Origin: a virus
Lineage: Duplodnaviria; Heunggongvirae; Uroviricota; Caudoviricetes
Strand: one strand, 5' to 3'
Length of the DNA stretch: 64,000 nucleotides
IMG/VR virus record: IMGVR_UViG_3300006467_000563
Coordinates: 4,337-68,336 of that record
The notes under the pieces were generated by a model. It was not told the DNA's origin, did not search any database, and saw only the letters and a program-made list of their open reading frames with translations. This document shows positions 1 through 56,151 of this stretch, one piece after another (within the stretch, counting starts at the first letter, position 1; each line of letters starts with the position of its first letter). Made by a program: the position numbers and the translations under genes.

Positions 1-417
1 TTGGTCCCAAGCTCAAGAAGAAATCACTTCTTACATTGATGAGCGAGCCAAACACATTGACGGATACCAGAACAACAATGGATTTACTTTTAGTGACTGT
101 TCACATACATCATTTAGTATCGCGTGGGCTGTTGAATGTAACCTGCGTGTTAACGGTGTGTCAGAACTAGTTACGCATGATGGAAAAGATTATATGCTAG
201 TGACTGTTAGCTGCTCCGTTAATTGGAGTTCTACTGGCAGAAGCATACCGTGTGCGTTAGCTGCTGTCAATCTGTATTCAGATGTCATCAATCTTGGTGC
301 TAAGATTGAATCATACTTTAATAAGGAATACCTTGTGGAAGTAGAATGTTCTTAGAAGATTTTACAGAAGAGTTATGCTGAGTTTCTTGATACTTTTAAT
401 AAGAAAGCAAAATAATT

Positions 418-21869: not shown

Positions 21870-22067
21870 TTGAGTTTAATATTTGAAAGTATTGATTCTG
21901 AAGGAAATGACGCTGAGATGCGTGCTACAAGAGTTCCATATGGAACTGATAGGCGTGATAGATTACGTATTAGCGTTTCTCTTCCGTGGAACGATGGTCC
22001 ACGTGACATTGAACTCACTAGAAAACAAGCCGATGAACTAGTTAAACTGATTGGAGAAATGCAATGA
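21870..22067 (+). CDS. small hypothetical protein
   Basis: 65 aa. Confidence 0.4.
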   Translation: MSLIFESIDSEGNDAEMRATRVPYGTDRRDRLRISVSLPWNDGPRDIELTRKQADELVKLIGEMQ

Positions 22068-22387
22068 TTATTGACAGTAAAACAAAACGTGTAGTTGACT
22101 GCTTTCGTTCAGACGACTATGCTGGACTTGAGTATGGTGACTATGCCTTCTATTATGGTTACGAAGAGACTGTTCCTAAGCACGATTTAGAAAATGGTGA
22201 GTGGGCTTTCGTTGCCGACTACAAAGGTAATGAGTTGTGTCGTCTGACTGTAGATGATTTTAAAGAATATGTTTGTAGAAATACATTCGAAAGGCTTGAC
22301 AAATGGAATGTTGAGCATGTATTATTAACCGGAGTTGGAATTGTTTTAAATAACGAAAAATTTCACCCAGAAAGAAAGGCAATGTAA
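22064..22387 (+). CDS. hypothetical protein
   Basis: 107 aa; ATGA and TAATG overlaps. Confidence 0.45.
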   Translation: MIIDSKTKRVVDCFRSDDYAGLEYGDYAFYYGYEETVPKHDLENGEWAFVADYKGNELCRLTVDDFKEYVCRNTFERLDKWNVEHVLLTGVGIVLNNEKFHPERKAM

Positions 22388-28644: not shown

Positions 28645-29048
28645 AACTACAGCTAACAGGAAATAACAGTGAGCAGTATTCTGGATACACTCATATCAAT
28701 GTTGAAGAGATGTATAAAATGGACAACATTGCAGATAACTCTTGTGAAGATATCGTCGCATTAGGTTTTTTCCACGAGTATACTGTTCCTGAATTACAGA
28801 ATGTTATCAGGGAAGTTGTTTCAAAATTGAGGCGAGGCGGAGCACTAACTTTCAATTTTGTGAACTATCATACATTCGATGTATATAAAACAGATGTGGA
28901 AACTATTAACTCAATATTGAGTTCATCTGCTAATGTTCTTACAATCAAGTATGTAAATGAATTAATTGCCAGCTTTGGGTTAAAAATGATTACAAAAGAA
29001 ACTAATCCTACTACACATGAAACAACAATTGTAGCAGAGAGGGTGTGA
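28641..29048 (+). CDS. hypothetical protein (possible methyltransferase-like)
   Basis: 135 aa; weak class I MTase-like core. Confidence 0.35.
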   Translation: MKLQLTGNNSEQYSGYTHINVEEMYKMDNIADNSCEDIVALGFFHEYTVPELQNVIREVVSKLRRGGALTFNFVNYHTFDVYKTDVETINSILSSSANVLTIKYVNELIASFGLKMITKETNPTTHETTIVAERV

Positions 29049-29974
29049 TGTATAATTTTATCAGTGTGGTAATTCCTACATACAAACCAGTATTCTTGCG
29101 TGATACTTTGAATGCGATGCGTAAGCAGAAGTATCCTAACAATAGATATGAAGTAATTGTTGTTGAAAATCCATTAAAAACTGATGAAGTATACAACGCT
29201 TGTAAAGTATATAATGCAAAATATTACATTTCGGAGTTGGGTTCAAATTGTGCTAGGAATCTCGGCATCAATCGTTCTCAAGGTGATTGGATTGTTTTAT
29301 GTGATGATGATATTCTGCCACAGAATGGGTGGCTTGCTGGGATTAACAACAGAATCAATAGTAATCCGGGGCATGGTGTATATGGAGGACCTGTTGAGAT
29401 AATTTGTCAAAAAGGTAGACCTTCATGGTTATATGGAGAGTTTCTACAATATCTGTCTGCTGTCTCTTATGGTCCATCTGTGATAGATTTTAGTGTAAAC
29501 TCTGGCATGCATCTTGTGTCAGCCAACTGCTTTTTTAGCAAGGAAAAATGGGCAAAGGTAGGCGGGTTCGATGAGTCTGTAGGATATCATGGTGATAATT
29601 TAATACCTAATGATGAAGTAGAGTTCTTTTATAAGATGGCATTTGCTTCTGAAGAGAATTCCCCTTACTTGTATGATGGCGGGCTTGGCGTTGCACATAT
29701 TATTAGAGATGAACGTACAAAATTAGATTGGCTCAAACGGCGATTCCATAATCAGGGTGTCGCAGACGCTAGGATGTTAGCCAAGAATAAGGACGTGCTA
29801 GATGTTTACCATGACATGTCATACAATGATAAGTTTATGAGAATGGTAGATATCAATACTGTCATGGATGTTCGCAATATTGTTCAGAATGAAGCTGTTA
29901 CAAGAGAATACATCAAGAATATTATAATTTGTAAGACAGAGTATATGGTTGGTTTCAACAAAGAGTTGGCCTAG
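29045..29974 (+). CDS. family 2 glycosyltransferase
   Basis: VVIPTYKP...YEVIVVEN...VLCDDD typical of the GT-A/GT2 N-domain. Confidence 0.7.
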   Translation: MMYNFISVVIPTYKPVFLRDTLNAMRKQKYPNNRYEVIVVENPLKTDEVYNACKVYNAKYYISELGSNCARNLGINRSQGDWIVLCDDDILPQNGWLAGINNRINSNPGHGVYGGPVEIICQKGRPSWLYGEFLQYLSAVSYGPSVIDFSVNSGMHLVSANCFFSKEKWAKVGGFDESVGYHGDNLIPNDEVEFFYKMAFASEENSPYLYDGGLGVAHIIRDERTKLDWLKRRFHNQGVADARMLAKNKDVLDVYHDMSYNDKFMRMVDINTVMDVRNIVQNEAVTREYIKNIIICKTEYMVGFNKELA

Positions 29975-44168: not shown

Positions 44169-44243
44169 TGGGATGTAGCTCAGTTGGTTTAGAGTGCTGG
44201 CTTTGGAAGCTAGAAGTCGCCGGTTCGAGTCCGGTCATCCCGA
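44169..44243 (+). tRNA. tRNA-Pro (TGG)
   Basis: Cloverleaf: acceptor TGGGATG/CATCCCG, D-stem GCTC/GAGT, anticodon loop TTTGGAA, T-arm GCCGG-TTCGAGT-CCGGT. Confidence 0.75.
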
Positions 44244-44317
44244 CTGAGCGGAAGATTGTGGTTCGAATCCACATCGCCTAGAATATCTGGGCGGTCGTCT
44301 AATGGCAGGACATCCGC
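44244..44317 (+). tRNA. second tRNA-like locus with 3'-half then 5'-half order (possible permuted or remnant tRNA)
   Basis: 3' piece CTGA-GCGGA-AGAT-TGTGG-TTCGAAT-CCACA-TCGCCTA is followed by a 5' piece TGGGCGG-TC-GTCT-AATGGCA-GGAC-A-TCCGC. Its anticodon stem TCCGC is exactly complementary to GCGGA in the upstream piece. Acceptor pairs 7/7 with wobbles. Confidence 0.35.
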
Positions 44318-44321
44318 GTGA

Positions 44322-44396
44322 GGCCAAGTAATACCTAGCGGCTATGGTGCTTCTTTTACAAGGAAGAGTTCGTGGGTTCGAGTCCCACCTTGGCTA
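44322..44396 (+). tRNA. tRNA-Val (TAC), atypical D-arm
   Basis: Acceptor GGCCAAG/CTTGGCT, anticodon arm CTTCT-TTTACAA-GGAAG, T-arm GTGGG-TTCGAGT-CCCAC; D region folds poorly. Confidence 0.55.
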
Positions 44397-44420
44397 CTTA
44401 TTTTATAACTGGAGGCAGTA

Positions 44421-45164
44421 ATGTGGAAGGTAATTCTTTTTCTTTTGCTAATCTCACCATGTATGGCAGACCAAGGCTTAATTGCCAAGAAACCATATGA
44501 TGATGAAATATATGTCTGCAAGAAAAGAACTCTCTATATTGCTGTTGACAAAACAGAGCTAACTACGTTAGAATCTAGCTTAACTAAAAGATGGATTGAT
44601 AGAGTCAATCCGAAAGTTCTAGCAACACTTGATTCGGATTTTATTTCTGACAAAATGTTGGAATATGACTTACGTGTTGCGAACATCAAGAGGCATTTTG
44701 ATGTCAAATTTGTAGACTGGTATGACCAGAATATTACCTACTACCCAGCTTATAAAATTGGAAGTGTTTGGCATCCATTGCCTAAAGGTGAGTATGAATC
44801 TCATAGGTGGTTGCAATTTTGGGAGTGGTTCATTCGTGAGTGGAATCTTCTAGATAATCATGAGCGATGGGATATCAAAAAATGGTCCATAAGAAATGAA
44901 GTATACAATCAACGTACAGCAGACAGAAAAAAGTTTGTTGAAAATTTAGTCTCAAATAGCGATGGTAGATACAGTTACGTTGAATATGGATGCGACGAAG
45001 TAGACGAAATTGGTGACTGTGGTTATTATGTCGTATTCGATAATAATACACAAGAAGGTGTTACCATATTTGATATTGGTTATGTCCCAAAACATATGCC
45101 AGCAGAGCCAGTGGAACCAGTAAGTACTGAATGTCCATTGGACCCAAAATACAAAATAAACTAA
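44421..45164 (+). CDS. secreted hypothetical protein
   Basis: Signal peptide MWKVILFLLLISPCMA; GGAGGCAGTAATG RBS. Confidence 0.5.
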   Translation: MWKVILFLLLISPCMADQGLIAKKPYDDEIYVCKKRTLYIAVDKTELTTLESSLTKRWIDRVNPKVLATLDSDFISDKMLEYDLRVANIKRHFDVKFVDWYDQNITYYPAYKIGSVWHPLPKGEYESHRWLQFWEWFIREWNLLDNHERWDIKKWSIRNEVYNQRTADRKKFVENLVSNSDGRYSYVEYGCDEVDEIGDCGYYVVFDNNTQEGVTIFDIGYVPKHMPAEPVEPVSTECPLDPKYKIN

Positions 45165-45167
45165 TAT

Positions 45168-45240
45168 GGGGTTATAGCTCAATTGGATAGAGCAACGGTC
45201 TTCTACACCGTAGGTCGGGGTTCGAGTCCCTGTAGCCCTA
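45168..45240 (+). tRNA. tRNA-Arg (TCT)
   Basis: GGGGTTA-TA-GCTC-AATTGGATA-GAGC-A-ACGGT-CTTCTAC-ACCGT-AGGTC-GGGGTTCGAGTCCCT-GTAGCCC... clean cloverleaf. Confidence 0.8.
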
Positions 45241-45245
45241 CTTAA

Positions 45246-45320
45246 CTCGCTGTAGCTCAATTTGGTAGAGCGGCGGTCTGAAGAGCCGCGTCTGTAATGG
45301 TTCGATTCCATTTAGCGGGA
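45246..45320 (+). tRNA. tRNA-Phe (GAA)
   Basis: D-arm GCTC-AATTTGGTA-GAGC, anticodon loop CTGAAGA, T-arm AATGG-TTCGATT-CCATT, acceptor CTCGCTG/TAGCGGG. Confidence 0.8.
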
Positions 45321-45388
45321 CTTTTAAAAAAAATACGACAGATGGCATTGACAACATGATTCAACTCATGTACAATATGCAAAACAAC

Positions 45389-45458
45389 GTGGAAGTAGCT
45401 CAGTTTGGTAGAGCAGGGTTCGCGACCTGTGTCGGTGGTTCGATTCCACCCTTCCCGG
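45389..45458 (+). tRNA. tRNA-like gene with non-pairing anticodon stem (possible Ala-CGC pseudogene)
   Basis: Canonical D-arm and T-arm (GGTGG-TTCGATT-CCACC), but no 5-bp anticodon stem can be formed around TTCGCGA. Acceptor 5/7. Confidence 0.35.
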
Positions 45459-45517
45459 CTTGCAGAAGAACAAAGGGTGTGTTCGTACAATGGGCACATT
45501 TTTCTTCTGCTAAACAT

Positions 45518-45591
45518 TGGAGATTGGTGAAGAGGACTAACACACTCCCCTCATAAGGGAATATTCACGGGTTCGAATCCCGTATCTCCTA
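45518..45591 (+). tRNA. tRNA-Met/Ile2-type (CAT)
   Basis: Anticodon arm CTCCC-CTCATAA-GGGAA, T-arm ACGGG-TTCGAAT-CCCGT, acceptor TGGAGAT/ATCTCCT with a 1:72 mismatch. Confidence 0.65.
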
Positions 45592-45727
45592 TTAGAATGT
45601 TCTCCGCACGAGAACGCGGCATTAAGCGGGAGGGGATACCCTTGACATACGGAAGACTGCTATAGAAGTCCAAGTATTTTCGGTAATAGAACGACTTACC
45701 CTCATGCGGAGAATATTTTATACATAT
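45592..45727 (+). ncRNA. candidate structured RNA (long-range inverted repeat)
   Basis: TTCTCCGCA near the 5' end pairs with TGCGGAGAA about 110 nt downstream; internal GC-rich hairpins; no ORF on the + strand. Confidence 0.25.
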
Positions 45728-45796
45728 CGCAGATGGTCCGGTGACCAGCCAAGCCTCATAAGCTAGGATAGACAGGTTCAACCCCTGTATCTGCCA
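45728..45796 (+). tRNA. tRNA-like (CAT) with miniature D-arm and C1.C72 mismatch
   Basis: Anticodon arm CAAGC-CTCATAA-GCTAG (one mismatch), T-arm ACAGG-TTCAACC-CCTGT, acceptor CGCAGAT/ATCTGCC. D-arm reduced to GGTC-CGGT-GACC. Confidence 0.4.
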
Positions 45797-45950
45797 TTTT
45801 TGTAGGAGTTAACTTAACAGCTACATGCTATAGCTTAATAGTTATCTTCTGCATTATGTCTAGGAGTTGCGGTAGTTGGTTACTACACTCTCTTATAAGC
45901 AAAAGTCCTTAAGAGAAACCAAAAACAACTCTATTGGACATAAAATTTTC

Positions 45951-46565
45951 TCAAATTCGAGATATAAAATGCTGTTCTCTATGACAATTAGCACATAGAA
46001 GTTGACATTTATCTAACTCGGATTTGATTTTAATATGATGCTTCTCCCAAGAAGTGTGTCTGGCTTTTGATATATTAAAGTCTTTTTCAGTTGGGTCAAC
46101 ATGATGAAAGTCTAATGCCCCTTGACATTTATCGTAACCGCATTTTTCGCATTTGCCGCCCTTGTATTCAATACACTTTTGTTTCATAAGCTGATGTCTT
46201 TCTATTGCTTTTTCGGTATTACATGTTTTGCAAGTAGGATGATATGTGAATTTGATTTTACTCGTTCTTTTATGAAAGAATGATATATCTTTTTCTATAT
46301 TGCATTTGTTACAAACTTTTGTTTTTAGTTCAGTATAAACTTTTTTATAAGCACCGATGTCGAAACATTTTTTACAATAAGTTAAATTTGCTGCAATTTT
46401 TTCTTGACAAATTTTACATTCTTTTGTAAGATGTCTTTTAACATGAATTTTGTTATTATATGTTGCAGAACATGAGCGGCTACAAAAGTGATTAGGGCTT
46501 TTTTTAATTTCACTTGGTAGTTTTTTAAATTCCGTGTTACAGTTTAAACAATTGACCTGTGGCAT
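45951..46565 (-). CDS. HNH homing endonuclease
   Basis: Cys-rich zinc ribbons plus LDFHHVDP...CANCH HNH motif; the only sizeable minus-strand gene, sitting inside the tRNA cluster. Confidence 0.7.
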   Translation of the reverse strand: MPQVNCLNCNTEFKKLPSEIKKSPNHFCSRSCSATYNNKIHVKRHLTKECKICQEKIAANLTYCKKCFDIGAYKKVYTELKTKVCNKCNIEKDISFFHKRTSKIKFTYHPTCKTCNTEKAIERHQLMKQKCIEYKGGKCEKCGYDKCQGALDFHHVDPTEKDFNISKARHTSWEKHHIKIKSELDKCQLLCANCHREQHFISRI

Positions 46566-46628
46566 GATATTCCTTCGTGTTTGTTATATTGTTGTTAGTT
46601 CGTCTCCCACTATATTATACACCTTTTT

Positions 46629-46700
46629 CGCGTCTAAAGTGTTATTGGCTGCATTTCTGGCTTCCAACCAGACGGTCAGGGTTCGAGTCCCTGTAGACGC
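46629..46700 (+). tRNA. tRNA-Gly (TCC)
   Basis: Acceptor GCGTCTA/TAGACGC perfect, anticodon arm TCTGG-CTTCCAA-CCAGA, T-arm CAGGG-TTCGAGT-CCCTG; unusual AA at positions 8-9. Confidence 0.75.
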
Positions 46701-46947
46701 ACTTTCGGGCTATTTTCGGATTTGCCTAGATAACGGAAGAATTAACTTCAAGTAGTGGTTGATGGACAGGCCACTTTAAAAGTCTATCAAAAAGTAACTG
46801 CAAAACAGTTCGCAATCGCTGCGTAATAGCAGCTAATGATGCCTGACTGAGCTATAAATCATGTCAAAACAGGTAGAAGCTGTAAAGCCTGTGGATTTAT
46901 CTCAGCAACAACATATACTTTGCCGGTGAAGTCATCGGATAAACTTG

Positions 46948-46984
46948 TAAACGTTATTTGAATAAATTATACTAGAAACGACGG
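46948..46984 (+). other. orphan tRNA 3' half (T-arm plus acceptor strand)
   Basis: GACGG-TTCGAAT-CCGTC-ATAGTCC-A with no complementary 5' acceptor strand within 300 nt upstream. Confidence 0.35.
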
Positions 46985-47018
46985 TTCGAATCCGTCATAG
47001 TCCAATAGATATTGATAT

Positions 47019-47564
47019 ATGTACACAAAATTAGTTTGTAACTATTGTGGTAATTACTTCGAAAAGAAAACCAACGAATATAATAGATGCGTCAAAAAAG
47101 GACAAAAGAATTATTTTTGTTCTAGGGACCATGCAAACAAATTTTTACCACGGCCACACTTAAAACCGAGAATGGAAAATATCATTCCCGGCTCATTTAA
47201 AGATGAATATTCTGATTTTAAGTGGTATATGAAGGTTGTAAGAAATCGATGTAATAAAAAACAATACGAAACAGATATTAGTTTAATGTTTTTAAAACAT
47301 CTTTGGAAAGAACAAGAAGGTAAATGTGCATTAACTCAAATACCTATGCAATTAAGAACTCATGATAGTTCAGATAAGTTGGAATTTTATACTGCATCGT
47401 TAGACAGGATAGACAACACAAAAAGATATACAAAAGATAATGTTAGATTTGTCTGTGTTATGACTAACTATGCGAGAAATACTTTTTCTGATAATGATTT
47501 TTATGAGTTTATAAAACTAGCATCAAAAGCTATTTTAGGAAAAGGAAAAAAGGATGGCAATTAA
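47019..47564 (+). CDS. putative homing-endonuclease-like zinc-finger protein
   Basis: N-terminal CNYCG...C..HANKF zinc ribbon like the neighbouring HNH genes; no clear HNH motif. Confidence 0.4.
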   Translation: MYTKLVCNYCGNYFEKKTNEYNRCVKKGQKNYFCSRDHANKFLPRPHLKPRMENIIPGSFKDEYSDFKWYMKVVRNRCNKKQYETDISLMFLKHLWKEQEGKCALTQIPMQLRTHDSSDKLEFYTASLDRIDNTKRYTKDNVRFVCVMTNYARNTFSDNDFYEFIKLASKAILGKGKKDGN

Positions 47565-48159
47565 CAAACAACCCACTCTAGGAAAAAAAGCACAAGAAGC
47601 CGGTATCAAAGATGCAGTGCATGTTGCTATCGTTTCGTGTCGTGCTGGTGGACCCCTCTCTCCCGGTGATAGGGTGAAACTCAACGAGTATAGAGAAGCA
47701 ATCAAGACATATAGTAAAGACTATATCGGAGTTGCTGACCCTTTCATTAAGGGAGGTATTGACAAAGGAAGTTTCTTCTGGCTTGTAATGAAGCCTAATG
47801 AAACTGAAGCAGTTCGGCATGTTTGGGACCACGAATTGGACTTTTCCGCTCCAGACCGTGAAGTTCAGGAATGCAAATGGATAAAAGAGTACGCAGACGA
47901 CCTTGGGGTGAGCTATCAGTTCTTGATGGATGCTGCAAGAAAAGCTGTCAATGGAGAGTCTTCTCCTAAGTACGAAGGAACAAAAACTCAGGAAGAAATC
48001 GAAGAAGTATTAGATGACTTCTATGACTTCTGGTATTACTGGAGCGAAGAAACTGGATACGAGTTTGAAAACTGTGGGTCTGCGTGTTGTCCAGAATACG
48101 AACATCCTTCCTCGTTTAGTATATTTGACTATTCTGAAGCTAAGAGTGAAGAATCTTAG
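47554..48159 (+). CDS. paralog family X, copy 3
   Basis: DAVHVAIVS, PGDRVKL, VADPFI, KGSFFWLVMKP and RHVWDHELDF blocks; tail CGSACCPEYEH. Confidence 0.6.
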   Translation: MAINKQPTLGKKAQEAGIKDAVHVAIVSCRAGGPLSPGDRVKLNEYREAIKTYSKDYIGVADPFIKGGIDKGSFFWLVMKPNETEAVRHVWDHELDFSAPDREVQECKWIKEYADDLGVSYQFLMDAARKAVNGESSPKYEGTKTQEEIEEVLDDFYDFWYYWSEETGYEFENCGSACCPEYEHPSSFSIFDYSEAKSEES

Positions 48160-48170
48160 ACTTTAGATAA

Positions 48171-48244
48171 CAACCCATAGTGTCAATGGTCTAGCACATT
48201 ACTCTGATAAGGTAATAGTCGTGGTTCGAGTCCACGTGGGTTGA
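48171..48244 (+). tRNA. tRNA-Ile (GAT)
   Basis: Acceptor CAACCCA/TGGGTTG perfect, D-arm GTGT-CAATGGTCTA-GCAC, anticodon arm TTACT-CTGATAA-GGTAA, T-arm CGTGG-TTCGAGT-CCACG. Confidence 0.8.
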
Positions 48245-48248
48245 CTTT

Positions 48249-48319
48249 CGCATCTTAGTTTAAAGCTAGAATACCTACCATGAGGGTAGGAGACGGTGGT
48301 TCAATTCCATCAGGTGCGA
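48249..48319 (+). tRNA. tRNA-like with atypical anticodon loop
   Basis: Acceptor CGCATCT/AGGTGCG and T-arm GGTGG-TTCAATT-CCATC are good; the anticodon region forms a CCTACC/GGTAGG stem with a 5-nt loop or an ACCATGA loop lacking U33. Confidence 0.35.
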
Positions 48320-48382
48320 CTTTAAGAGATGTTAGAAAAATAGGTCGTCTATCAACCTTTGTTCTCCGGCATCTCTTTATAA

Positions 48383-48455
48383 TGTGGAGTAGCTCAATTG
48401 GCAGAGCACTTGTCTTGTAAACAAGAGGTTGCGGGTTCGATGCCCGTCTCCACAT
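48383..48455 (+). tRNA. tRNA-Thr (TGT)
   Basis: Acceptor TGTGGAG/CTCCACA, anticodon arm CTTGT-CTTGTAA-ACAAG, T-arm GCGGG-TTCGATG-CCCGT. Confidence 0.8.
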
Positions 48456-48460
48456 CTTAT

Positions 48461-48533
48461 GCCTCTGTAGCTCAATGGTTAGAGCAAGAAACTCTAAACT
48501 TCTTGGTTGCAGGTTCGAATCCTGTCGGGGGCA
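48461..48533 (+). tRNA. suppressor tRNA, anticodon CTA (reads UAG amber)
   Basis: 73 nt canonical cloverleaf GCCTCTG-TA-GCTC-AATGGTTA-GAGC-A-AGAAA-CTCTAAA-CTTCT-TGGTT-GCAGG-TTCGAAT-CCTGT-CGGGGGC-A. Loop has U33, CUA at 34-36, A37. Confidence 0.6.
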
Positions 48534-48717
48534 CTGTTTTTATTTTTAACAAAACTATCTTCAAAGGAGAAAAGTAATGTTGTAGGTTGACGAAAAATGG
48601 TTAGCACATGGTGAATTAGTTTGGAGTTTCTATCAGAAGCTCTTAAAAGGTGACTGGGATAATTTAAGACTCCCAGAGTGGTTTGTAGAGCATCACGAAA
48701 TACTCGTATCTCTTCAG

Positions 48718-49392
48718 TTGCCTATCAAACAAGTTAAACAGTATATCATTTATCACGATTGCGGAAAGCATTTGTGTGAAACTGTTGACGAAGGTGGTAA
48801 ACATTATCCAGACCACGCGAATGTTTCTGCTGATTATTGGGCAGAACATAGTGATGACAAACTAGTTGAGAAGTTGATTCGTAATGATATGTTTTTTCAT
48901 ATCTGTAAAGCGAATGACTTAAAAGAAACAACACTAACCAAACGTGAATTAGCAACATTATTAGTGACAGCACTTGCTGAGATTCATGCCAATGCAGAAA
49001 TGTTCGGTGGAATCGAATCACAATCTTTCAAAATTAAATACAAGCAGATTGAAAGACGTGGCAAATCCTTCGTAAAAGATAATCTTATCGACAATTACAA
49101 GGGTTACACATACTGTTTTGTGAGAACAGATATTACTCCCTCTCAACAAGCAGTACAAATGTCACATGCGTGCATTGAAGCACAGAAAAAATTCAGTCCT
49201 AGTAGGCATCCATCAATTGTGGCTATCGGGACTAAAAAGAAAAAAATACAAAAAATTATACAGGAATGTATTGACAACGAGATAGATTTCGCTATATTTA
49301 GAGATAACATATTTGATAACGAGGTCACAGCAATTGCAACTGAACCTCTTTATGAAAACAGAAAAGTTTTTGACAGGTATACATTACTCTAA
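48718..49392 (+). CDS. hypothetical protein (possible HD-like metal-dependent hydrolase)
   Basis: YHDCGKH...HYPDH His/Asp pattern; weak. Confidence 0.4.
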   Translation: MPIKQVKQYIIYHDCGKHLCETVDEGGKHYPDHANVSADYWAEHSDDKLVEKLIRNDMFFHICKANDLKETTLTKRELATLLVTALAEIHANAEMFGGIESQSFKIKYKQIERRGKSFVKDNLIDNYKGYTYCFVRTDITPSQQAVQMSHACIEAQKKFSPSRHPSIVAIGTKKKKIQKIIQECIDNEIDFAIFRDNIFDNEVTAIATEPLYENRKVFDRYTLL

Positions 49393-49410
49393 ATTAAAGG
49401 ACCAACTATC

Positions 49411-49848
49411 GTGTTAGTCTCGAAGTACAATCCAAAATTTGATGGTTGTTTACATGTACAACAATACAAACAACTATCTGAACTTTATCTGGAAAATTTT
49501 AATGCTCCAGTATTGACATACAACGAGTTTGTCGATAGAATCAATTCAGACGATGTCACTATTTACACTTTCGAAGTGGGTGACAAAGTAGTGGCAACAG
49601 CTTCAGGATATTTATACCCGTCTCTGTTACACGGTGGACAGCCTAGAATGCAGATTGAAAATGTCTGCACTAGAAAAGAGCATCAAGGTAATGGATATGC
49701 ATCACATTTAATCGGATTGCTCATAGAGCTGGCAGAAGAAAAAGGGTGCTATAAAGTATCACTAAGCTGTTCTGACAAAAACTTGGACTTCTATCAGAAT
49801 AGAGGTTTCAAACAACATGAACACACTATGAGGATTGATTTGGTATGA
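49411..49848 (+). CDS. GNAT family N-acetyltransferase
   Basis: RKEHQGNGYASHLIGLLIELA acetyl-CoA binding motif region. Confidence 0.6.
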   Translation: MLVSKYNPKFDGCLHVQQYKQLSELYLENFNAPVLTYNEFVDRINSDDVTIYTFEVGDKVVATASGYLYPSLLHGGQPRMQIENVCTRKEHQGNGYASHLIGLLIELAEEKGCYKVSLSCSDKNLDFYQNRGFKQHEHTMRIDLV

Positions 49849-50039
49849 CTACTGCTGATACGCATTTAGAGAATGCAAGAGACAAAGTAAAAGAGGCTGT
49901 TCGTGACCTATCACAAATTTTAATCGAAGAGTGTTATGGACATGATGAATATGCTGAAAGTTTCAATTTAAAACTGGAATCAGCATTTACAAAACTGAGA
50001 GTAGTTGATAAACTACTAAATAATAAAGATATCGAATAA
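49845..50039 (+). CDS. small hypothetical protein
   Basis: 64 aa; ATGA overlap. Confidence 0.35.
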   Translation: MTTADTHLENARDKVKEAVRDLSQILIEECYGHDEYAESFNLKLESAFTKLRVVDKLLNNKDIE

Positions 50040-50229
50040 AAACGACAAGGCGAATGATATGACTCGTCACCATATTATGCTTGCCGCAAACCAATCAACT
50101 GCTGCTCGCAGAGAGCATAAAGTTGTATTGAGAACATATTCCACAACGACGATTACAGTGGTGCAGATTGAGACGTGAGGGTAATTGCCTCTAACTTCCA
50201 TCTAAATGTTTGCTAGATTTTTATTCATC

Positions 50230-50285
50230 GCGGGTAATGCTAAGGGAATCATTGACTAAGCTGGCGGTTTGAATCCGCTCCCGCA
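50230..50285 (+). other. truncated tRNA-like minihelix (about 56 nt)
   Basis: GCGGG...GGCGG-TTTGAAT-CCGCT-CCCGC-A: acceptor and degenerate T-arm present, no anticodon arm. Confidence 0.25.
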
Positions 50286-50442
50286 ACCAACAAATAATGT
50301 ATGACAAGCCGAATGACTATGAATCAACTTGGCGTAAACCTGTTTTTAGGTCGCTACTAAAGACAGAGAATTGAGTACAGGCTAGTGAATTAGCTACTCA
50401 CGAACAGGTCTGTAGAAATGTTTACTTGATACATTAAAATAT

Positions 50443-50517
50443 GGCGGTGTAGTCCAATTGGCAGGAGACGCATGTCTTAGGAACATGACAGTATGGGTTC
50501 GAATCCCATTGCCGCTA
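50443..50517 (+). tRNA. tRNA with anticodon TAG (Leu-type) but class I architecture
   Basis: Perfect anticodon arm CATGT-CTTAGGA-ACATG (U33, G37), T-arm ATGGG-TTCGAAT-CCCAT, acceptor GGCGGTG/TGCCGCT; only a 5-nt variable loop. Confidence 0.55.
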
Positions 50518-50815
50518 CTTTTATGGCCGTGAGTGAAAAGAGGCTGTTGAAATACATAAGCCGTTCACCTTAATAGTATGATAAATGTGTCAAATAAAAC
50601 ATACTGTATCTTACGCTTTGACTTATTGCGTCGGTCATATTTAATATAAGAGGTCGAGCCGGTGTGCGACTAAGTCTAGTAGACTGCTAGATTGAATACG
50701 TCGGTTCATCCAGAAGTTAACTGGCTTATGTGCGAACGCGGAGTAGTCACTGCTTAGTAGGCATATGTTTGGGCTTCATCACGGATGCACATCGGCACGC
50801 CCTCTTATATAACAT

Positions 50816-50906
50816 TCCCCGGTACGCTAACTGGTAAGCGGCCAAGCTGTTAACTTGGTGTAGTCCGTCTTTGAACGGTATAGAGGTTCGACTCCTCTCT
50901 GGGGAG
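50816..50906 (+). tRNA. class II-like tRNA with anticodon GTT (Asn-type; Tyr-like long variable arm)
   Basis: Acceptor TCCCCGG/CTGGGGA, D-arm CGCT-AACTGGTA-AGCG, anticodon arm CCAAG-CTGTTAA-CTTGG, 23-nt variable arm with CCGT/ACGG stem, T-arm AGAGG-TTCGACT-CCTCT. Confidence 0.55.
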
Positions 50907-50921
50907 CTTAGGAGAAATACT

Positions 50922-51356
50922 ATGAAGGTTTTGATTAGCGGACATAGAAAATCAAAATTAGCCAACTATGACATCAAATGGATATCTAATGAAATAGAAC
51001 GGCTTATATTTGAGAATCCAGCTATAATTGGATTATCAGGGATGGCCGATGGCATAGACCTTTTATACTGCCAACTATTACTTCAATATAGGCGTGGGTA
51101 TCATTGCTATATCCCCTTTGATGAACAAGACAAGTATATGTCAGACCATGATAAAACATGGCGTCAAAGTTTAATTGACTCATCTTGGGCTGTCATAAAA
51201 GCAAAAAATTCACAAATGGTTTCAGATTGTGATTATGGAATCATAGTTTGGGATGGAAATAAAGGTGGTACACACAACGTGTTCCAGCAAATGCTCGAAG
51301 CAAAGAAAAACTTTTGGTGGATTGAACCACATAATCAAAAAGTAATTTATTTTTAA
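50922..51356 (+). CDS. SLOG/YpsA-like (DprA/LOG-fold) protein
   Basis: MKVLISGHRK...GLSGMADGIDLL pattern resembles the YpsA/SLOG nucleotide-binding family. Start set at the internal ATG with AGGAGAAATACTATG RBS to avoid overlap with the tRNA. Confidence 0.4.
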   Translation: MKVLISGHRKSKLANYDIKWISNEIERLIFENPAIIGLSGMADGIDLLYCQLLLQYRRGYHCYIPFDEQDKYMSDHDKTWRQSLIDSSWAVIKAKNSQMVSDCDYGIIVWDGNKGGTHNVFQQMLEAKKNFWWIEPHNQKVIYF

Positions 51357-51429
51357 GGTATTAAAATGTCTATTAAACGCAAACGCAAACATCGATAAAC
51401 GCATGGAGTTTATGACTTCATGTTAGCAT

Positions 51430-51501
51430 GGGGTCATGGTGTAGCGGTTGCATTGCAGACTTTTAATCTGTTAGGCGGGGGTTCGAATCCCTCTGGCCCT
51501 A
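51430..51501 (+). tRNA. tRNA-Lys (TTT)
   Basis: D-arm GTGT-AGCGGTT-GCAT, anticodon arm GCAGA-CTTTTAA-TCTGT, T-arm GGGGG-TTCGAAT-CCCTC, acceptor GGGGTCA/TGGCCCT. Confidence 0.75.
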
Positions 51502-51529
51502 TTTTTAAACACATATGAAAAAAAGATAT

Positions 51530-51604
51530 AGGGGATTAGTTCAATTGGATAGAATATCAGTCTACGAAACTGAAGATGTTGAGGTTCGAGTCCTACATTC
51601 CCTA
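51530..51604 (+). tRNA. tRNA-Arg (ACG)
   Basis: D-arm GTTC-AATTGGATA-GAAT, perfect anticodon arm TCAGT-CTACGAA-ACTGA, acceptor AGGGGAT/ATTCCCT; T-stem only 3 bp. Confidence 0.7.
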
Positions 51605-51612
51605 CTTTATTT

Positions 51613-52035
51613 ATGAAAAAACAATGCTATCAATGCAACCAAGAGTTGCCACTATCCTCTTTTAATAAAAACTGCAAGAAAAAAGATGGGTTGCAATCAG
51701 AGTGTAGAGATTGTGGCAAGACGTACCGTAAACAGCATTATCAAGATAACAAACAGTATTATATAGATAAGGCAGTAAAAAGACGGGACAACAATGTTAA
51801 AAAACTTACGCCTTTATTAGTAGAATATCTGGAACAGAATCCTTGTGTGGACTGTGGAAACAATGATATACGTGTGCTGCATTTTGACCATTTAGAAAAT
51901 AAGCAATATCATGTCCCGGAAATGATTAGACTAGGACATAGTTGGCAAAATATTCTATCTGAGATATCGAAATGCGATGTTAGATGTGCTAACTGTCACG
52001 CCATCAAAACATGGCCGAACAGGTTTGATACTTAG
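51613..52035 (+). CDS. HNH homing endonuclease
   Basis: N-terminal zinc ribbon; HFDHLENK...CANCH. Confidence 0.65.
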   Translation: MKKQCYQCNQELPLSSFNKNCKKKDGLQSECRDCGKTYRKQHYQDNKQYYIDKAVKRRDNNVKKLTPLLVEYLEQNPCVDCGNNDIRVLHFDHLENKQYHVPEMIRLGHSWQNILSEISKCDVRCANCHAIKTWPNRFDT

Positions 52036-52044
52036 GAATAAAAC

Positions 52045-52254
52045 ATGGAAATCACTGGAAAAGAAGTATCGGAATGGCTAATTAGCAATAAAGACAGGCT
52101 TGCTTTTATCTTGCCAAAAGTCGATGTTGCTGAATTAGGCAAATGTATCTATGCTGTTGAAGATGATGCAATTATTTTTATGCTTCAGGAAATTCAATAT
52201 CCAGAAGTTAAGCTGGACAACATGTGTCCTGAAATAGATAATACGGGGGCGTAG
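52045..52254 (+). CDS. small hypothetical protein
   Basis: 69 aa. Confidence 0.3.
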   Translation: MEITGKEVSEWLISNKDRLAFILPKVDVAELGKCIYAVEDDAIIFMLQEIQYPEVKLDNMCPEIDNTGA

Positions 52255-52319
52255 CCCAATTAGGCAGAGGCAAGCGACTTAAAATCGCTCCAGTATGGGT
52301 TCGAGTCCCATCGTCCCTA
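52245..52319 (+). tRNA. tRNA with anticodon TAA (Leu-type), class I architecture
   Basis: Perfect anticodon arm AGCGA-CTTAAAA-TCGCT, T-arm ATGGG-TTCGAGT-CCCAT, acceptor GGGGGCG/CGTCCCT; 5-nt variable loop. Confidence 0.6.
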
Positions 52320-52367
52320 CTCACGTGACAGTTTTAAAAGAGGTTTCTGTACAAAAAACCAATACAT

Positions 52368-52439
52368 ACCAGATTAGTGTAATTGGTAGCACATCGGTTT
52401 CCAAGTCCGAAAGTCAGGGTTCGAGTCCTTGGTCTGGTG
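52368..52439 (+). tRNA. tRNA-Trp (CCA)
   Basis: Acceptor ACCAGAT/GTCTGGT, D-arm GTGT-AATTGGTA-GCAC, anticodon loop TTCCAAG, T-arm CAGGG-TTCGAGT-CCTTG. Confidence 0.8.
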
Positions 52440-52449
52440 CTTTTTTAAT

Positions 52450-52531
52450 GGGAATACTACGCTTGTGGGAAAGTGGGATGGGTTGTAACCCCGTCGTCTC
52501 TGACTAAGCGGTTCGATTCCGTATATTCCCA
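52450..52531 (+). tRNA. tRNA-Tyr (GTA), class II
   Basis: Perfect acceptor GGGAATA/TATTCCC, anticodon arm ATGGG-TTGTAAC-CCCGT, 12-nt variable arm, T-arm AGCGG-TTCGATT-CCGTA. Confidence 0.7.
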
Positions 52532-52544
52532 CTTGGAGGTTCAA

Positions 52545-52769
52545 ATGTCAAAATTCTTATTTTTCGATATCTTAGGATATTTAGAAGAGACAGATACTCC
52601 AGTACTCAAAAAATGGTTCGACTTCGATAAAGAAGAAGGACAAATTTTGATTAAAGATTATGTTTTTACCGTAAGACCAAAAGATTCGTATATAATTGGA
52701 AAAATTCCACAAACGGACTTGAATTACGACAACTACATAACTATAATTGATACAATCAACGAAGGATAA
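52545..52769 (+). CDS. small hypothetical protein
   Basis: Internal ATG (MSKFLFF) just downstream of tRNA-Tyr with GGAGGTTCAAATG RBS. Confidence 0.35.
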   Translation: MSKFLFFDILGYLEETDTPVLKKWFDFDKEEGQILIKDYVFTVRPKDSYIIGKIPQTDLNYDNYITIIDTINEG

Positions 52770-52772
52770 AAC

Positions 52773-53180
52773 ATGCATTGGCCAAAACTATTTTTCAAAC
52801 GTGCAGACGGTGGTGAAAAATCTGGTGTAACTGGTTATATGTTGATTGAATGGAAGTCAGTTTTCTCAATTGGGCTGTTACATTTTAAAGAAGGCTCACG
52901 AGAAGCATTTCATACACACGCATTCAATGCTATTACTTGGTGGCTTAAAGGTCTTGTTGTAGAAGTACACGCTAATGCGGATAATATACTTGACAAATTC
53001 AAATTATTTCGTCCGTCATTAAAACCAAAATTTACAAGTAGAGACTGCTATCATAAAATTATAGCATACACAGATACTTGGGCCTTAACTTTTCGAGGAC
53101 CGTGGAAAAACGAATGGAAAGAGTTAAGACCTGACGGTGAAGTAGTTTTAACTCATGGAAGAAAAATTCAGTCTCTATAA
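52773..53180 (+). CDS. hypothetical protein
   Basis: 135 aa. Confidence 0.4.
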   Translation: MHWPKLFFKRADGGEKSGVTGYMLIEWKSVFSIGLLHFKEGSREAFHTHAFNAITWWLKGLVVEVHANADNILDKFKLFRPSLKPKFTSRDCYHKIIAYTDTWALTFRGPWKNEWKELRPDGEVVLTHGRKIQSL

Positions 53181-53344
53181 ATAATATCAACTTGAGAGTA
53201 TAACAGATTCATGACTGGCCGTAGTTGAGAACATAAGAAACGCTACGAGCAAGTTGGTAACTGAAACCGTGGGAGGCAGCGGTATACAAACAGCCTTATA
53301 TGAGGGCTGGCATGTACCAAGGGGGCGAGAAATACTTGCAATAT

Positions 53345-53368
53345 TTCTGTGACGAGTTCGATTCTCGT
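53345..53368 (+). other. orphan tRNA 3' half (T-arm plus acceptor strand)
   Basis: ACGAG-TTCGATT-CTCGT-TCGGTCC-A at the end of a 200-nt noncoding region; no matching 5' acceptor strand. Confidence 0.3.
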
Positions 53369-53379
53369 TCGGTCCATTT

Positions 53380-53904
53380 ATGATATATTATATAGAAAAA
53401 TCTGGTAGAAAACGAAAAGGAATAGAGAAGACATGTCCTGTATGTCATAATTTGTTTGTAACTAGACTAGACCAACAAGGAACATATTGTTCTAAACAGT
53501 GCTGTTCTGATAGTCGTAAGAATAAGGTACAATTACAATGTGACTGCTGTGATAAATTGTTTTACAGACATCCTAGTGCTTTATCTTGTTCAAAAAGCGG
53601 GTTTTATTTTTGTTCTAGGGAATGTAAGGACAAATCACAAAGACTTGGTGGTATTGAAGAAATTATGCCGAGTCACTACGGTTCATTCCAAGGTAGAAAA
53701 TCAGCTATATATCGTAGAACATATAAAGAGCTGAATAATATAGAAATACTATCATGTATTCGCTGCGGATATTCTGAATTTGAATCTGCTGTAGACATCC
53801 ATCATATTGATGAAAATTGTAATAACAACTCAATAGAAAACTTAACTGCCTTATGTGCGTGTTGTCATAGGGGATTACATTATAGGCTGTGGGAATTACA
53901 ATGA
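53380..53904 (+). CDS. HNH homing endonuclease
   Basis: Multiple CxxC pairs; AVDIHHIDEN...CACCH. Confidence 0.65.
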   Translation: MIYYIEKSGRKRKGIEKTCPVCHNLFVTRLDQQGTYCSKQCCSDSRKNKVQLQCDCCDKLFYRHPSALSCSKSGFYFCSRECKDKSQRLGGIEEIMPSHYGSFQGRKSAIYRRTYKELNNIEILSCIRCGYSEFESAVDIHHIDENCNNNSIENLTALCACCHRGLHYRLWELQ

Positions 53905-54827: not shown

Positions 54828-54835
54828 CTTTTTAT

Positions 54836-54909: not shown

Positions 54910-54917
54910 CCTTTTTT

Positions 54918-56145: not shown

Positions 56146-56151
56146 CTTTTT

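What the first reader, a model, noticed from the sequence alone, without database searches (positions are those of the whole stretch)
48461..48533. Canonical amber-suppressor tRNA (anticodon CTA)
A 73-nt tRNA with perfect class I geometry has anticodon loop CTCTAAA: U33, CUA at 34-36, A37. This predicts reading of UAG. The acceptor and T-arm are strong, so it is unlikely to be a decayed pseudogene. Phage-encoded suppressor tRNAs are associated with stop-codon reassignment or with manipulating host translation. Many genes in this window still end in TAG (for example 158..355, 22064..22387 and 29045..29974 end TAG/TAA/TAG), so any recoding would have to be partial or temporal.
Basis: seen in the sequence. 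Interest (0 to 1): 0.8.

Follow-up and report, generated by a model that had tools for sequence, protein, structure and literature searches.

The report
Suppressor tRNA paired with amber-gated gene
The phage tRNA that reads the UAG stop codon is real, and it appears to exist mainly to translate the gene right next to it, a tRNA-end-processing enzyme whose third codon is UAG; the same tRNA-plus-gated-gene pair recurs in many giant phages whose suppressor tRNAs had no known target.

Summary
Window 48461-48533 (+) is a canonical class I tRNA with a 7-nt anticodon loop CUCUAAA and anticodon CUA (ARAGORN; Rfam 65.6 bits). It lies in an array of 26 tRNAs plus a tmRNA in a large phage. The genome is not recoded: 27 of 126 + strand ORFs end in TAG, and treating TAG as sense gains nothing. 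The new result is a specific target. Forty-four nt downstream, AAGGAG-N7-ATG TTG TAG opens a 268-codon ORF. Its first 44 codons contain no start codon, yet they are conserved in homologs. The protein is an HD-fold domain (closest to the C-terminal region of class II tRNA nucleotidyltransferases) fused to a PTH2-like peptidyl-tRNA hydrolase domain. In 80 IMG/VR loci, 62 have TAG as the in-frame stop bounding the conserved domain (control ORFs 20.7%), 49 have a short ATG leader followed by TAG (control 1.7%), and all 7 internal stops are TAG. Forty loci carry a same-strand tRNA-CUA within 10 kb. Lineages with a TGA leader carry tRNA-UCA instead. XacN1, RsoM2USA, fHe-Yen9-04 and pT24 share the cassette, and the XacN1 authors reported finding no target. 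I conclude this is a conserved pairing of a suppressor tRNA with one stop-gated gene. The purpose of the gate and the inserted amino acid remain unresolved.

The parts
48461..48533 (+). Amber suppressor tRNA, anticodon CUA (34-36), loop CUCUAAA, discriminator A73, 5-nt variable loop, no encoded CCA
   Evidence: ARAGORN; Rfam RF00005 65.6 bits with alignment; compensatory covariation among 15 related tRNA-CUAs
48564..48569 (+). Shine-Dalgarno AAGGAG, 7 nt upstream of the leader ATG
   Evidence: Read directly from the sequence; SD-like motifs precede the leader ATG in 34 of 61 unique homologous contexts
48577..48582 (+). Two-codon leader ATG TTG of the gated gene
   Evidence: the same ATG TTG / ATG TCG leader occurs in close relatives L091-L094
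48583..48585 (+). In-frame UAG (codon 3) followed by G: the gate, presumed to be decoded by the tRNA-CUA 50 nt upstream
   Evidence: it is the only TAG in the window with a short ATG leader, a long ORF and no nearby start codon
48586..48717 (+). 44 conserved codons after the UAG with no ATG, GTG or TTG; they include invariant H8 and G9 of the HD-fold domain
   Evidence: 44 open codons before the first start; tblastn homologs align from residue 6; invariant columns; synonymous differences among relatives
48586..49083 (+). HD-fold domain (H..HD.GK..P.H..DM..H); nearest solved fold is the C-terminal region of the class II A-adding tRNA nucleotidyltransferase
49093..49389 (+). PTH2-like (peptidyl-tRNA hydrolase 2 fold) C-terminal domain
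49390..49392 (+). TAA terminator of the gated gene

Best explanation
The 73-nt gene is a working phage amber suppressor tRNA. It forms a two-part cassette with the next gene (48577-49392). That gene starts SD-ATG-TTG-UAG and then encodes a 268-residue enzyme made of an HD-fold domain and a PTH2-like domain, both folds typical of enzymes that act on tRNA 3' ends. Ribosomes starting at the ATG meet UAG at codon 3. If the phage tRNA-CUA decodes it, the full protein is made. If RF1 wins, only a dipeptide is released. Synthesis of the enzyme is therefore coupled at the translational level to the amount of active suppressor tRNA. The rest of the genome keeps the standard code. SHOWN by sequence and comparison: the tRNA; the in-frame UAG; the absence of any alternative start; conservation of the post-UAG codons; recurrence of the arrangement across many lineages; physical linkage to tRNA-CUA; and covariation of stop type with anticodon. 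INFERRED: that read-through actually happens; which amino acid is inserted (unresolved); and why the gate exists. My preferred reading of the purpose (about 40%) is that enzyme output is made proportional to suppressor activity because the enzyme handles tRNA species linked to suppression or to the phage tRNA pool, such as peptidyl-tRNA or blocked tRNA 3' ends. This would act as dose-matching or negative feedback. A simple timing or licensing gate, delaying the enzyme until phage tRNAs are expressed, is the main alternative.
For: 1. tRNA validity.
2. Window gene: AAGGAG-N7-ATG TTG TAG, then 44 codons with no start codon. Homologs in XacN1, Xoo-sp13, CM1 and RAS14 align from residue 6, and H8/G9 are invariant.
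3. The same in-frame TAG occurs in cultured phages: codon 3 in XacN1 and RAS14; codon 4 in Xoo-sp13, RsoM2USA and LR745206; about codon 47 in fHe-Yen9-04 and XbC2; codon 3 in pT24, upstream of its annotated start.
4. In 80 IMG/VR loci: bounding stop is TAG in 62 versus 20.7% of 1,343 control ORFs (p = 2e-25); short ATG leader plus TAG in 49 versus 1.7% (p = 1e-51); all 7 internal stops are TAG. At 70% identity, 37 of 52 clusters have a leader TAG, 4 an internal TAG and 3 a leader TGA.
5. There is no start codon for 26-121 conserved codons after the TAG in the window, L011, L017/18/29, L039, L046/47, L048 and L050.
6. Linkage: tRNA-CUA is the commonest anticodon near the gene (44 of 503 tRNAs). 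It lies within 10 kb in 40 of 80 loci, always on the same strand, and is the only tRNA in several loci. In close relatives of the window phage it sits 45-250 nt upstream.
7. Covariation: the TGA-leader loci L051 and L070 carry tRNA-UCA, not CUA, while TGA remains a common terminator there (p = 0.006).
8. The base after the gated TAG is A or G in 56 of 61 contexts and never T, against 28% T after ordinary terminal TAGs.
9. Replication in GTDB contigs: 6 of 8 loci have an in-frame TAG and 4 have tRNA-CUA.
10. The window keeps the standard code.
11. XacN1, RsoM2USA and fHe-Yen9-04 are reported or annotated as carrying tRNA-CUA, and for XacN1 the authors state no target was found.
Against: There is no expression, aminoacylation or proteomic evidence, so read-through is inferred. 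In most loci a conserved ATG lies 4-12 codons after the TAG, so those lineages could in principle make a slightly shorter protein without suppression. About 8 IMG/VR loci plus phage ME3 keep a tRNA-CUA next to the gene but have no in-frame stop in the region examined, so decoding this TAG cannot be the tRNA's only role everywhere. Half of the loci show no suppressor within 10 kb, although in XacN1 the suppressors are known to lie far away in the terminal repeats. The codon after the TAG is ATT in 23 of 61 contexts, and ATT is a weak initiator in some bacteria. The window tRNA has a weak, A/U-rich anticodon stem with an A31.C39 mismatch. The locus counts are not phylogenetically independent, although the cluster-level counts address this.
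Confidence: 0.8

Rival explanations
1. The suppressor marks genome-wide or block-wise stop-codon reassignment (code 15-like, TAG read as an amino acid in late genes), as in crAss-like, Lak and other alternatively coded phages.
For: Phage tRNA-CUA genes are strongly associated with TAG recoding in the literature. Only 64 kb of a larger genome is visible, and structural and lysis genes are not in this window.
Against: 27 of 126 + strand ORFs end in TAG in tightly packed gene arrays. Treating TAG as sense does not lengthen the top ORFs and raises coverage less than TGA or TAA read-through. Only one TAG in the window has the leader-plus-startless-ORF signature. In the 80 related loci, 12% of long ORFs end in TAG. 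The XacN1 authors found nothing by reading through 18 amber stops.
Confidence: 0.05
2. The ATG-NNN-TAG is a separate two-codon minigene (an upstream ORF like the lambda bar minigenes) that regulates the enzyme gene by termination and re-initiation or by peptidyl-tRNA drop-off. The main ORF starts on its own downstream, and the tRNA-CUA is only a neighbour.
For: In most loci a conserved ATG lies 4-12 codons after the TAG. ATT follows the TAG in 23 of 61 contexts. A two-codon ORF next to a PTH-like gene recalls minigene/Pth biology (my own knowledge of lambda bar).
Against: The leader is in frame with the main ORF in nearly all loci. At least 10 loci, including the window, have 26-121 conserved codons after the TAG with no ATG, GTG or TTG; the codon after the TAG is GTT in the window and ACC in XacN1 and RAS14. 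Internal TAGs at about codon 47 and elsewhere lie between invariant catalytic motifs. The stop type covaries with the linked suppressor's anticodon. A minigene would gain nothing from a context that disfavours termination (T never at +4).
Confidence: 0.08
3. The interrupted genes are decaying pseudogenes or assembly errors, and the tRNA-CUA is an unrelated member of the tRNA array, perhaps a mutated sense tRNA kept by drift.
For: Annotators treat the genes as truncated or split (P0001 starts at the internal TTG; g408/g409 and XbC2_408/409). One locus (L097) has ATG TTG TAG out of frame with the ORF.
Against: All in-frame stops are TAG, or TGA with a matching tRNA-UCA, and never a random mix. 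Invariant catalytic residues, a high-confidence fold and synonymous substitutions in the post-TAG codons among relatives indicate purifying selection. The arrangement recurs in isolates sequenced independently and in three collections. The tRNA shows compensatory covariation with an invariant anticodon loop.
Confidence: 0.02
4. The suppressor's main role is elsewhere, for example C-terminal extension of TAG-terminated phage or host proteins, interference with host RF1-dependent termination, or rescue of nonsense mutations. The gated gene is a secondary passenger that acquired TAG because a suppressor was available.
For: About 8 loci plus ME3 keep a tRNA-CUA beside an ungated copy of the gene. 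A close relative also carries a tRNA-UUA (L092). Borges et al. propose that suppressor acquisition 'detoxifies' in-frame stops, which then accumulate.
Against: Accidental accumulation would not repeatedly hit one gene family at codon 3-4, in a favourable +4 context, across dozens of lineages while sparing the other genes in the same loci. In many loci the tRNA-CUA is the only tRNA next to this gene.
Confidence: 0.15

Closest known systems
Orphan tRNA-CUA suppressors reported in standard-code jumbo phages (XacN1, RsoM2USA, fHe-Yen9-04, ME3)
   Same: The tRNA is of the same kind: class I, CUA anticodon, sitting in or near large phage tRNA arrays. These phages also carry homologs of the window's downstream gene.
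   Different: In those reports the tRNAs have no assigned target; the XacN1 paper says so explicitly. Here a conserved target is identified. It was hidden because the TAG lies upstream of the annotated start or splits the annotation into two CDSs.
Stop-codon recoding in crAss-like, Lak and other alternatively coded phages (code 15 or code 4 with a phage suppressor tRNA; Borges et al., Ivanova et al., Peters et al.)
   Same: A phage-encoded suppressor tRNA lets in-frame stop codons be read, and this has been proposed as post-transcriptional control of gene expression.
   Different: In those phages many genes, mostly late, structural and lysis genes, are recoded and the stop codon is depleted as a terminator. 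Here TAG remains a normal terminator, and a single tRNA-metabolism gene, physically linked to the tRNA, carries the stop, usually at codon 3-4.
prfB (RF2) autoregulation through an early in-frame UGA
   Same: An early in-frame stop codon makes synthesis of a translation-related protein depend on the competition between termination and an alternative decoding event (established knowledge).
   Different: prfB needs a +1 frameshift, and the sensed factor is its own product. Here decoding stays in the zero frame and depends on a dedicated tRNA encoded alongside. Whether the product feeds back on decoding is unknown.
Programmed read-through in viruses (Q-beta A1 protein; retroviral gag-pol)
   Same: Stop-codon read-through is used to produce a protein (established knowledge).
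   Different: Those cases use host near-cognate tRNAs at low efficiency to make a C-terminally extended minor product. Here the virus brings its own cognate suppressor, and the stop lies at the very start of the ORF, so it gates the whole protein.
Synthetic amber-gate circuits (suppressor-tRNA feed-forward loop, PMC7969014)
   Same: The logic is the same: an in-frame UAG in the output gene plus a separately expressed suppressor tRNA produces tight, AND-like control (abstract seen).
   Different: Those circuits are engineered. This appears to be a natural, widely conserved counterpart.
Lambda bar minigenes and Pth
   Same: An SD-ATG-NNN-stop minigene form occurs next to peptidyl-tRNA hydrolase biology (my own knowledge).
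   Different: The bar minigenes stand alone and are toxic in pth-defective hosts. Here the mini-ORF is in frame with, and continuous with, a long conserved ORF.

Membership tests
tRNA (Rfam RF00005), class I | Cloverleaf matching the covariance model above the gathering score; 7-nt anticodon loop; short variable loop | tested here: met
   65.6 bits against a gathering score of 29; full-length model match 1-71; 5-nt variable loop; ARAGORN call
Amber suppressor tRNA | Anticodon CUA at positions 34-36 with U33 and a purine at 37 | tested here: met
   The CM alignment gives C32 U33 C34 U35 A36 A37 A38. The loop CUCUAAA is shared by 30 of 42 unique related tRNA-CUAs.
Amber suppressor tRNA | A cognate in-frame UAG exists in a conserved gene of the same genome | tested here: met
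   UAG at 48583-48585 is codon 3 of a conserved ORF with no alternative start
Amber suppressor tRNA | The tRNA is aminoacylated and demonstrably suppresses UAG in vivo | not testable with these tools
   Needs a reporter assay or proteomics. Sequence comparison gives no confident identity: the nearest relatives are Met, Arg, Lys, Thr and Trp, and internal TAG columns differ among lineages.
tRNA-Pyl (ARAGORN's label) | Atypical architecture: very small D-loop without G18G19, 3-nt variable loop, elongated anticodon stem (my own knowledge of tRNA-Pyl) | tested here: not met
   The D-loop is 8 nt (AAUGGUUA) and contains GG; the T-loop is a canonical UUCGAAU; the variable loop is 5 nt. The label is only ARAGORN's default name for a CUA anticodon.
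Alternatively coded (code 15-type) phage | In-frame TAG in many genes, and TAG depleted as a terminator | tested here: not met
   TAG ends 27 of 126 ORFs. There is a single TAG-gated gene in 64 kb. TAG read-through gives no specific ORF gain. Only part of the genome is visible.
PTH2 peptidyl-tRNA hydrolase (PF01981) | PTH2 alpha/beta fold | tested here: met
PTH2 peptidyl-tRNA hydrolase (PF01981) | Sequence match above the Pfam gathering score, and conserved catalytic residues | tested here: inconclusive
   17.3 bits against a cut-off of 23. Some homologs do carry precomputed PF01981 hits. Catalytic residues were not examined.
HD-superfamily metal-dependent phosphohydrolase | H...HD...H...D metal-binding motif on an all-helical HD fold | tested here: met
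prfB-type autoregulatory recoding | Early in-frame stop bypassed by a +1 frameshift, where the product is the factor that reads that stop | tested here: not met
   The ORF continues in the zero frame. The product is an HD/PTH2-like enzyme, not a release factor.

The most novel reading that the evidence does not exclude
Suppressor tRNAs in standard-code jumbo phages are not relics or first steps towards recoding. They are one half of a conserved, self-contained regulatory cassette. The tRNA-CUA (or tRNA-UCA) licenses translation of a linked HD/PTH2-type tRNA-end hydrolase through a stop at codon 3-4. That enzyme in turn acts on the suppressor tRNA, or on the peptidyl- or blocked tRNAs that suppression and phage tRNA metabolism generate. 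Together they would form a natural closed-loop controller of read-through during infection.
Probability: 0.3. Interest if true: 0.9.

Novelty: new variant of a known kind. Interest (0 to 1): 0.75.

Why it matters
Phage-encoded suppressor tRNAs in phages that keep the standard genetic code have been a loose end. Several genome papers report them, and the XacN1 paper states that no target could be found. This analysis gives a concrete, conserved and easily testable target, and explains why it was missed: the stop lies at codon 3-4, upstream of the start that gene callers choose, or it splits the gene into two annotated CDSs. It has five consequences.

1. It points to a natural single-gene amber gate, the logic that synthetic biologists build on purpose.
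2. It links suppression to an uncharacterised family of tRNA-end enzymes (PHROG 14850; about 300 clusters at E <= 1e-30 and about 1,500 at E <= 1e-10 among 50%-identity representatives).
3. It corrects the annotation of this gene in many deposited phage genomes.
4. It shows that finding a suppressor tRNA should not be taken as evidence of genome-wide recoding.
5. Cultured phages (XacN1, RsoM2USA, pT24, RAS14, fHe-Yen9-04) carry the cassette, so experiments are possible straight away.

Tried and rejected
1. Megablast of the 2-kb neighbourhood against phage genomes found nothing. tblastn with a glycosyltransferase-like window protein also found nothing. The phage has no close sequenced relative.
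2. blastn of the tRNA against phages returned only generic tRNA-Arg and tRNA-Lys hits at 77-84% identity, which says nothing about identity.
3. Nearest-isoacceptor analysis of 42 unique tRNA-CUAs gave a mix of Met, Arg, Lys, Thr and Trp, so no amino acid can be assigned.
4. Inferring the inserted residue from internal TAG positions failed: the columns are W, S, L or variable in different lineages.
5. Other candidate targets in the window were rejected. In the same-frame pair 10054-10545 / 10555-10887, split by TAG, homologs cover only the first ORF, and same-frame neighbours split by TAA are more frequent. The pair 5976-6149 / 6159-6353 consists of short ORFs of unknown family and was not pursued.
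6. Genome-wide recoding was rejected.
7. No intrinsic terminator or convincing promoter was found between the tRNA and the gene; the promoter scan was at background level.
8. Pfam alone did not identify the HD domain and gave only a sub-threshold PTH2 hit. Structure prediction was needed.
9. Four literature searches and five papers read found no description of the cassette. The library lacks most subscription-journal papers, so prior description cannot be excluded.

Full report
**Observation.** ARAGORN finds 26 tRNAs and one tmRNA on the + strand between 44169 and 56993. One of them is a tRNA at 48461-48534 with anticodon CTA. Rfam's tRNA model matches 48461-48533 at 65.6 bits against a gathering score of 29, the fourth-best match in the window. 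The model alignment places CUCUAAA as a canonical 7-nt loop with U33, CUA at 34-36 and A37, and flags only the 31:39 pair (A.C) as non-standard. It does not move the anticodon. The D-loop (AAUGGUUA), the T-loop (UUCGAAU) and the 5-nt variable loop are ordinary, so ARAGORN's 'Pyl' label is only its default name for CUA. Fifteen tRNA-CUAs from related phage loci show compensatory changes in 14 of 20 stem pairs, with an invariant U33-CUA-A37.

**The genome is not recoded.** Almost all genes lie on the + strand and are tightly packed under code 11. Of 126 + strand ORFs, 55 end in TAA, 44 in TGA and 27 in TAG. Treating TAG as sense does not lengthen the largest ORFs, and it raises coverage less than treating TGA or TAA as sense. 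The window belongs to a large phage with no close sequenced relative. It carries auxiliary genes including RtcB, an RNA ligase, ThyX, glycosyltransferases and a radical-SAM enzyme.

**The target gene.** Forty-four nt after the tRNA, the sequence reads AAGGAG-N7-ATG TTG TAG GTT GAC GAA.... The frame opened by that ATG stays open for 268 codons after the TAG. The first ATG, GTG or TTG after the TAG is 44 codons in. Gene callers start there, and their product, P0001, has 224 aa. However, tblastn shows that homologs in the jumbo phages XacN1, Xoo-sp13, CM1 and RAS14 align from residue 6 after the TAG. Residues H8 and G9 are invariant in the family. The 44 startless codons are therefore coding sequence, and the only available initiation site is the SD-ATG two codons before the TAG. 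A scan of the whole window shows that 48583 is the only TAG combining a short ATG leader, a long downstream ORF and no nearby start. A same-frame ORF pair split by TAG at 10543 is best explained by chance.

**The arrangement is conserved.** In cultured phages the homolog carries an in-frame TAG at these positions:
- Codon 3 in XacN1 and RAS14 (ATG AAG TAG).
- Codon 4 in Xoo-sp13, RsoM2USA and the 634-kb uncultured phage LR745206.
- Codon 3 in pT24, 42 codons upstream of its annotated start.
- About codon 47, inside the conserved domain, in fHe-Yen9-04 and XbC2, where annotators split the gene into two CDSs.

Close relatives of the window phage (50-78% protein identity; L091-L094) all show a tRNA-CUA, then 45-250 nt, then SD-ATG-TTG/TCG-TAG-I[ND][DE]KWLAHG, with synonymous differences in the post-TAG codons.

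An alignment-driven scan of IMG/VR found 133 relatives and returned the best 80 as loci. In these loci:
- The first in-frame stop upstream of the conserved domain is TAG in 62. In 1,343 long control ORFs from the same loci it is TAG in 20.7% (Fisher p = 2e-25).
- In 49 loci an ATG lies 1-5 codons before that TAG, against 1.7% of controls (p = 1e-51).
- All seven internal in-frame stops are TAG.
- At least ten loci have 26-121 conserved codons after the TAG with no start codon.
- At 70% identity the family, including the window and the cultured phages, forms 52 clusters: 37 with a leader TAG, 4 with an internal TAG, 3 with a leader TGA, 1 with a bounding TAG but no ATG within 8 codons, and 7 with no stop.
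- TAG still terminates 12% of the control ORFs, so these phages use the standard code.

A second collection, GTDB genome contigs, replicates the pattern: 6 of 8 loci have an in-frame TAG.

**Linkage and covariation with the suppressor.** ARAGORN run on the +/-10 kb flanks of the 80 loci finds 503 tRNAs. CUA is the single most frequent anticodon (44). It is present in 40 loci, always on the gene's strand, and is the only tRNA in the locus in L049, L061, L067, L074 and L090; the same is true in L094, L101 and L102. ME3, RsoM2USA, XacN1, fHe-Yen9-04 and pT24 all carry a tRNA-CUA. Two lineages in which the leader stop is TGA (L051, L070) carry tRNA-UCA and no tRNA-CUA, while TGA remains a common terminator in those loci. 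The association between stop type and anticodon gives p = 0.006. The base following the gated TAG is A in 42, G in 14, C in 5 and T in 0 of 61 unique contexts, whereas T follows 28% of ordinary terminal TAGs. From established E. coli work, a 3' purine favours amber suppression. This is consistent with selection for read-through, although I did not test it.

**What the gated protein is.**
- PHROGs places it in family 14850, of unknown function. Pfam gives only a sub-threshold PTH2 hit.
- An AlphaFold2 model built on 45 sequences is very confident, with pLDDT 95.2 and pTM 0.86.
- The H...HD...H...D residues are invariant.
- The family occurs as HD only, HD+PTH2-like, and PTH2-like+HD. The swapped domain order supports a functional link between the two domains.
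- An exhaustive profile search finds 1,477 representative clusters at E <= 1e-10 and 299 at E <= 1e-30.

**Mechanism.** The best-supported reading is a two-part cassette in which the phage's own suppressor tRNA decodes the UAG at codon 3, so that production of this tRNA-end enzyme depends on active suppressor tRNA. Placing the stop at codon 3-4 is the cheapest position for such a gate, because a failed read-through wastes only a di- or tripeptide and leaves no truncated domain; this point is inference. The purpose of the gate is not established. I favour dose-matching or feedback between suppressor activity and an enzyme that processes tRNA species connected with suppression or with the phage tRNA pool. 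Supporting this, the tRNA stays next to the gene even in the few lineages where the gene has lost the stop, and the window also carries RtcB, an RNA ligase and a tmRNA. A simple temporal licensing gate is the main alternative. The inserted amino acid cannot be assigned.

**Rivals.**
- Genome-wide recoding is contradicted by stop usage and by the single-gene pattern.
- An independent minigene with downstream re-initiation cannot explain the startless lineages, the internal TAGs between invariant motifs, the near-universal in-frame relationship, or the stop/anticodon covariation.
- Pseudogenisation is contradicted by the exclusive stop type, the invariant residues, the synonymous variation, and recurrence in independent isolates.
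- A broader primary role for the suppressor, with this gene as a passenger, remains possible at low probability.

**Novelty.** Phage amber suppressors as such are well known. The papers I could read treat suppressors in standard-code jumbo phages as unexplained, or as a step towards recoding. The XacN1 paper states that no target genes could be identified after in-silico read-through of 18 annotated amber stops. That test could not see a TAG upstream of an annotated start. I found no description of this cassette, but the searchable library is incomplete. I rate it a new variant of a known kind: suppressor-tRNA-mediated recoding, here confined to one linked, conserved gene.

**Limits.** Everything about decoding is inferred from sequence comparison, with no expression or proteomic data. 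Only flanks of the related contigs were examined, so absence of a suppressor within 10 kb is uninformative. Locus counts are not phylogenetically independent, although the cluster-level counts agree.

Noticed in passing
window 46707-47007 (+): A phage-encoded tmRNA lies inside the tRNA array (Rfam RF00023, 68.4 bits; ARAGORN tag peptide AKQFAIAA**). It could be relevant to ribosome rescue if read-through produces non-stop complexes.
   Followed up: no
window 44169-56993 (+): The array holds 26 tRNAs interspersed with small ORFs and HNH endonuclease-like genes. Rfam adds a weak extra tRNA at 45389-45457 (35.4 bits) that ARAGORN did not call. ARAGORN's tRNA-Asn at 50816-50907 is 92 nt long, possibly because of an intron or a miscall, and it overlaps ORF 50871-51356.
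   Followed up: no
window 20788-21852 and 22772-23896 (+): An RNA ligase (PF09414) and an RtcB tRNA-splicing ligase (PF01139, E 2e-90) lie 2 kb apart, forming an RNA/tRNA repair module in the same phage. A further HD_4 domain protein lies at 12891-13700.
   Followed up: partly
window 49411-49848 (+): A GNAT acetyltransferase (PF00583, E 4e-16) lies directly downstream of the gated HD/PTH2-like gene. GNAT toxins that acetylate aminoacyl-tRNA are counteracted by Pth in bacteria (my own knowledge). I did not check whether this adjacency is conserved.
   Followed up: no
L051 6995-7207 and about 10000; L070 2455-2532 and about 10000 (IMG/VR): These are opal versions of the cassette: the leader is SD-ATG-...-TGA and the linked suppressor is tRNA-UCA (two copies in L051). 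TGA remains a frequent terminator in these loci. L033 and L076 have TGA leaders but show no suppressor in the available flank.
   Followed up: partly
L092 8458-8533: A close relative of the window phage carries a tRNA with anticodon UUA (an ochre suppressor by anticodon) in addition to its tRNA-CUA. No target was looked for.
   Followed up: no
L097 about 5940-5960 (Pseudomonas fluorescens 971-kb plasmid pMPCFBP13716, CP185741.1): A homolog sits on a bacterial megaplasmid. It has ATG TTG TAG immediately upstream but out of frame with the ORF. This could be a frameshifted relic, a sequencing error or a different mechanism.
   Followed up: no
L006 (Acinetobacter phage ME3); IMG/VR L034, L055, L057/58, L061, L064: A tRNA-CUA lies within 0.6-3.7 kb of the homolog, but no in-frame stop was found in or just upstream of the gene. 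The tRNA-gene linkage therefore persists without the gate, which hints at a functional tie beyond decoding.
   Followed up: partly
window 48491 and 48499 (tRNA positions 31 and 39); L091, L093, L094: The last pair of the anticodon stem is a mismatch in the window tRNA (A.C) and in three close relatives (C.U, C.A, C.A). More distant suppressors have a standard pair there.
   Followed up: partly
Public records: XacN1 ORF364 (BBA65512.1), RAS14 WAX21615.1, Xoo-sp13_327, RsoM2USA_91, pT24 BPT24_235, fHe-Yen9-04 g408/g409, XbC2_408/409: The deposited annotations of the homologs are N-terminally truncated or split into two CDSs because of the in-frame TAG. In pT24 the missing part removes much of the N-terminal PTH2-like domain.
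   Followed up: yes
window 10054-10887 and 5976-6353 (+): These are same-frame neighbouring ORFs separated only by a TAG and 2-3 codons. For the first pair, homologs cover only the upstream ORF, so it looks like coincidence. The second pair was not tested.
   Followed up: partly
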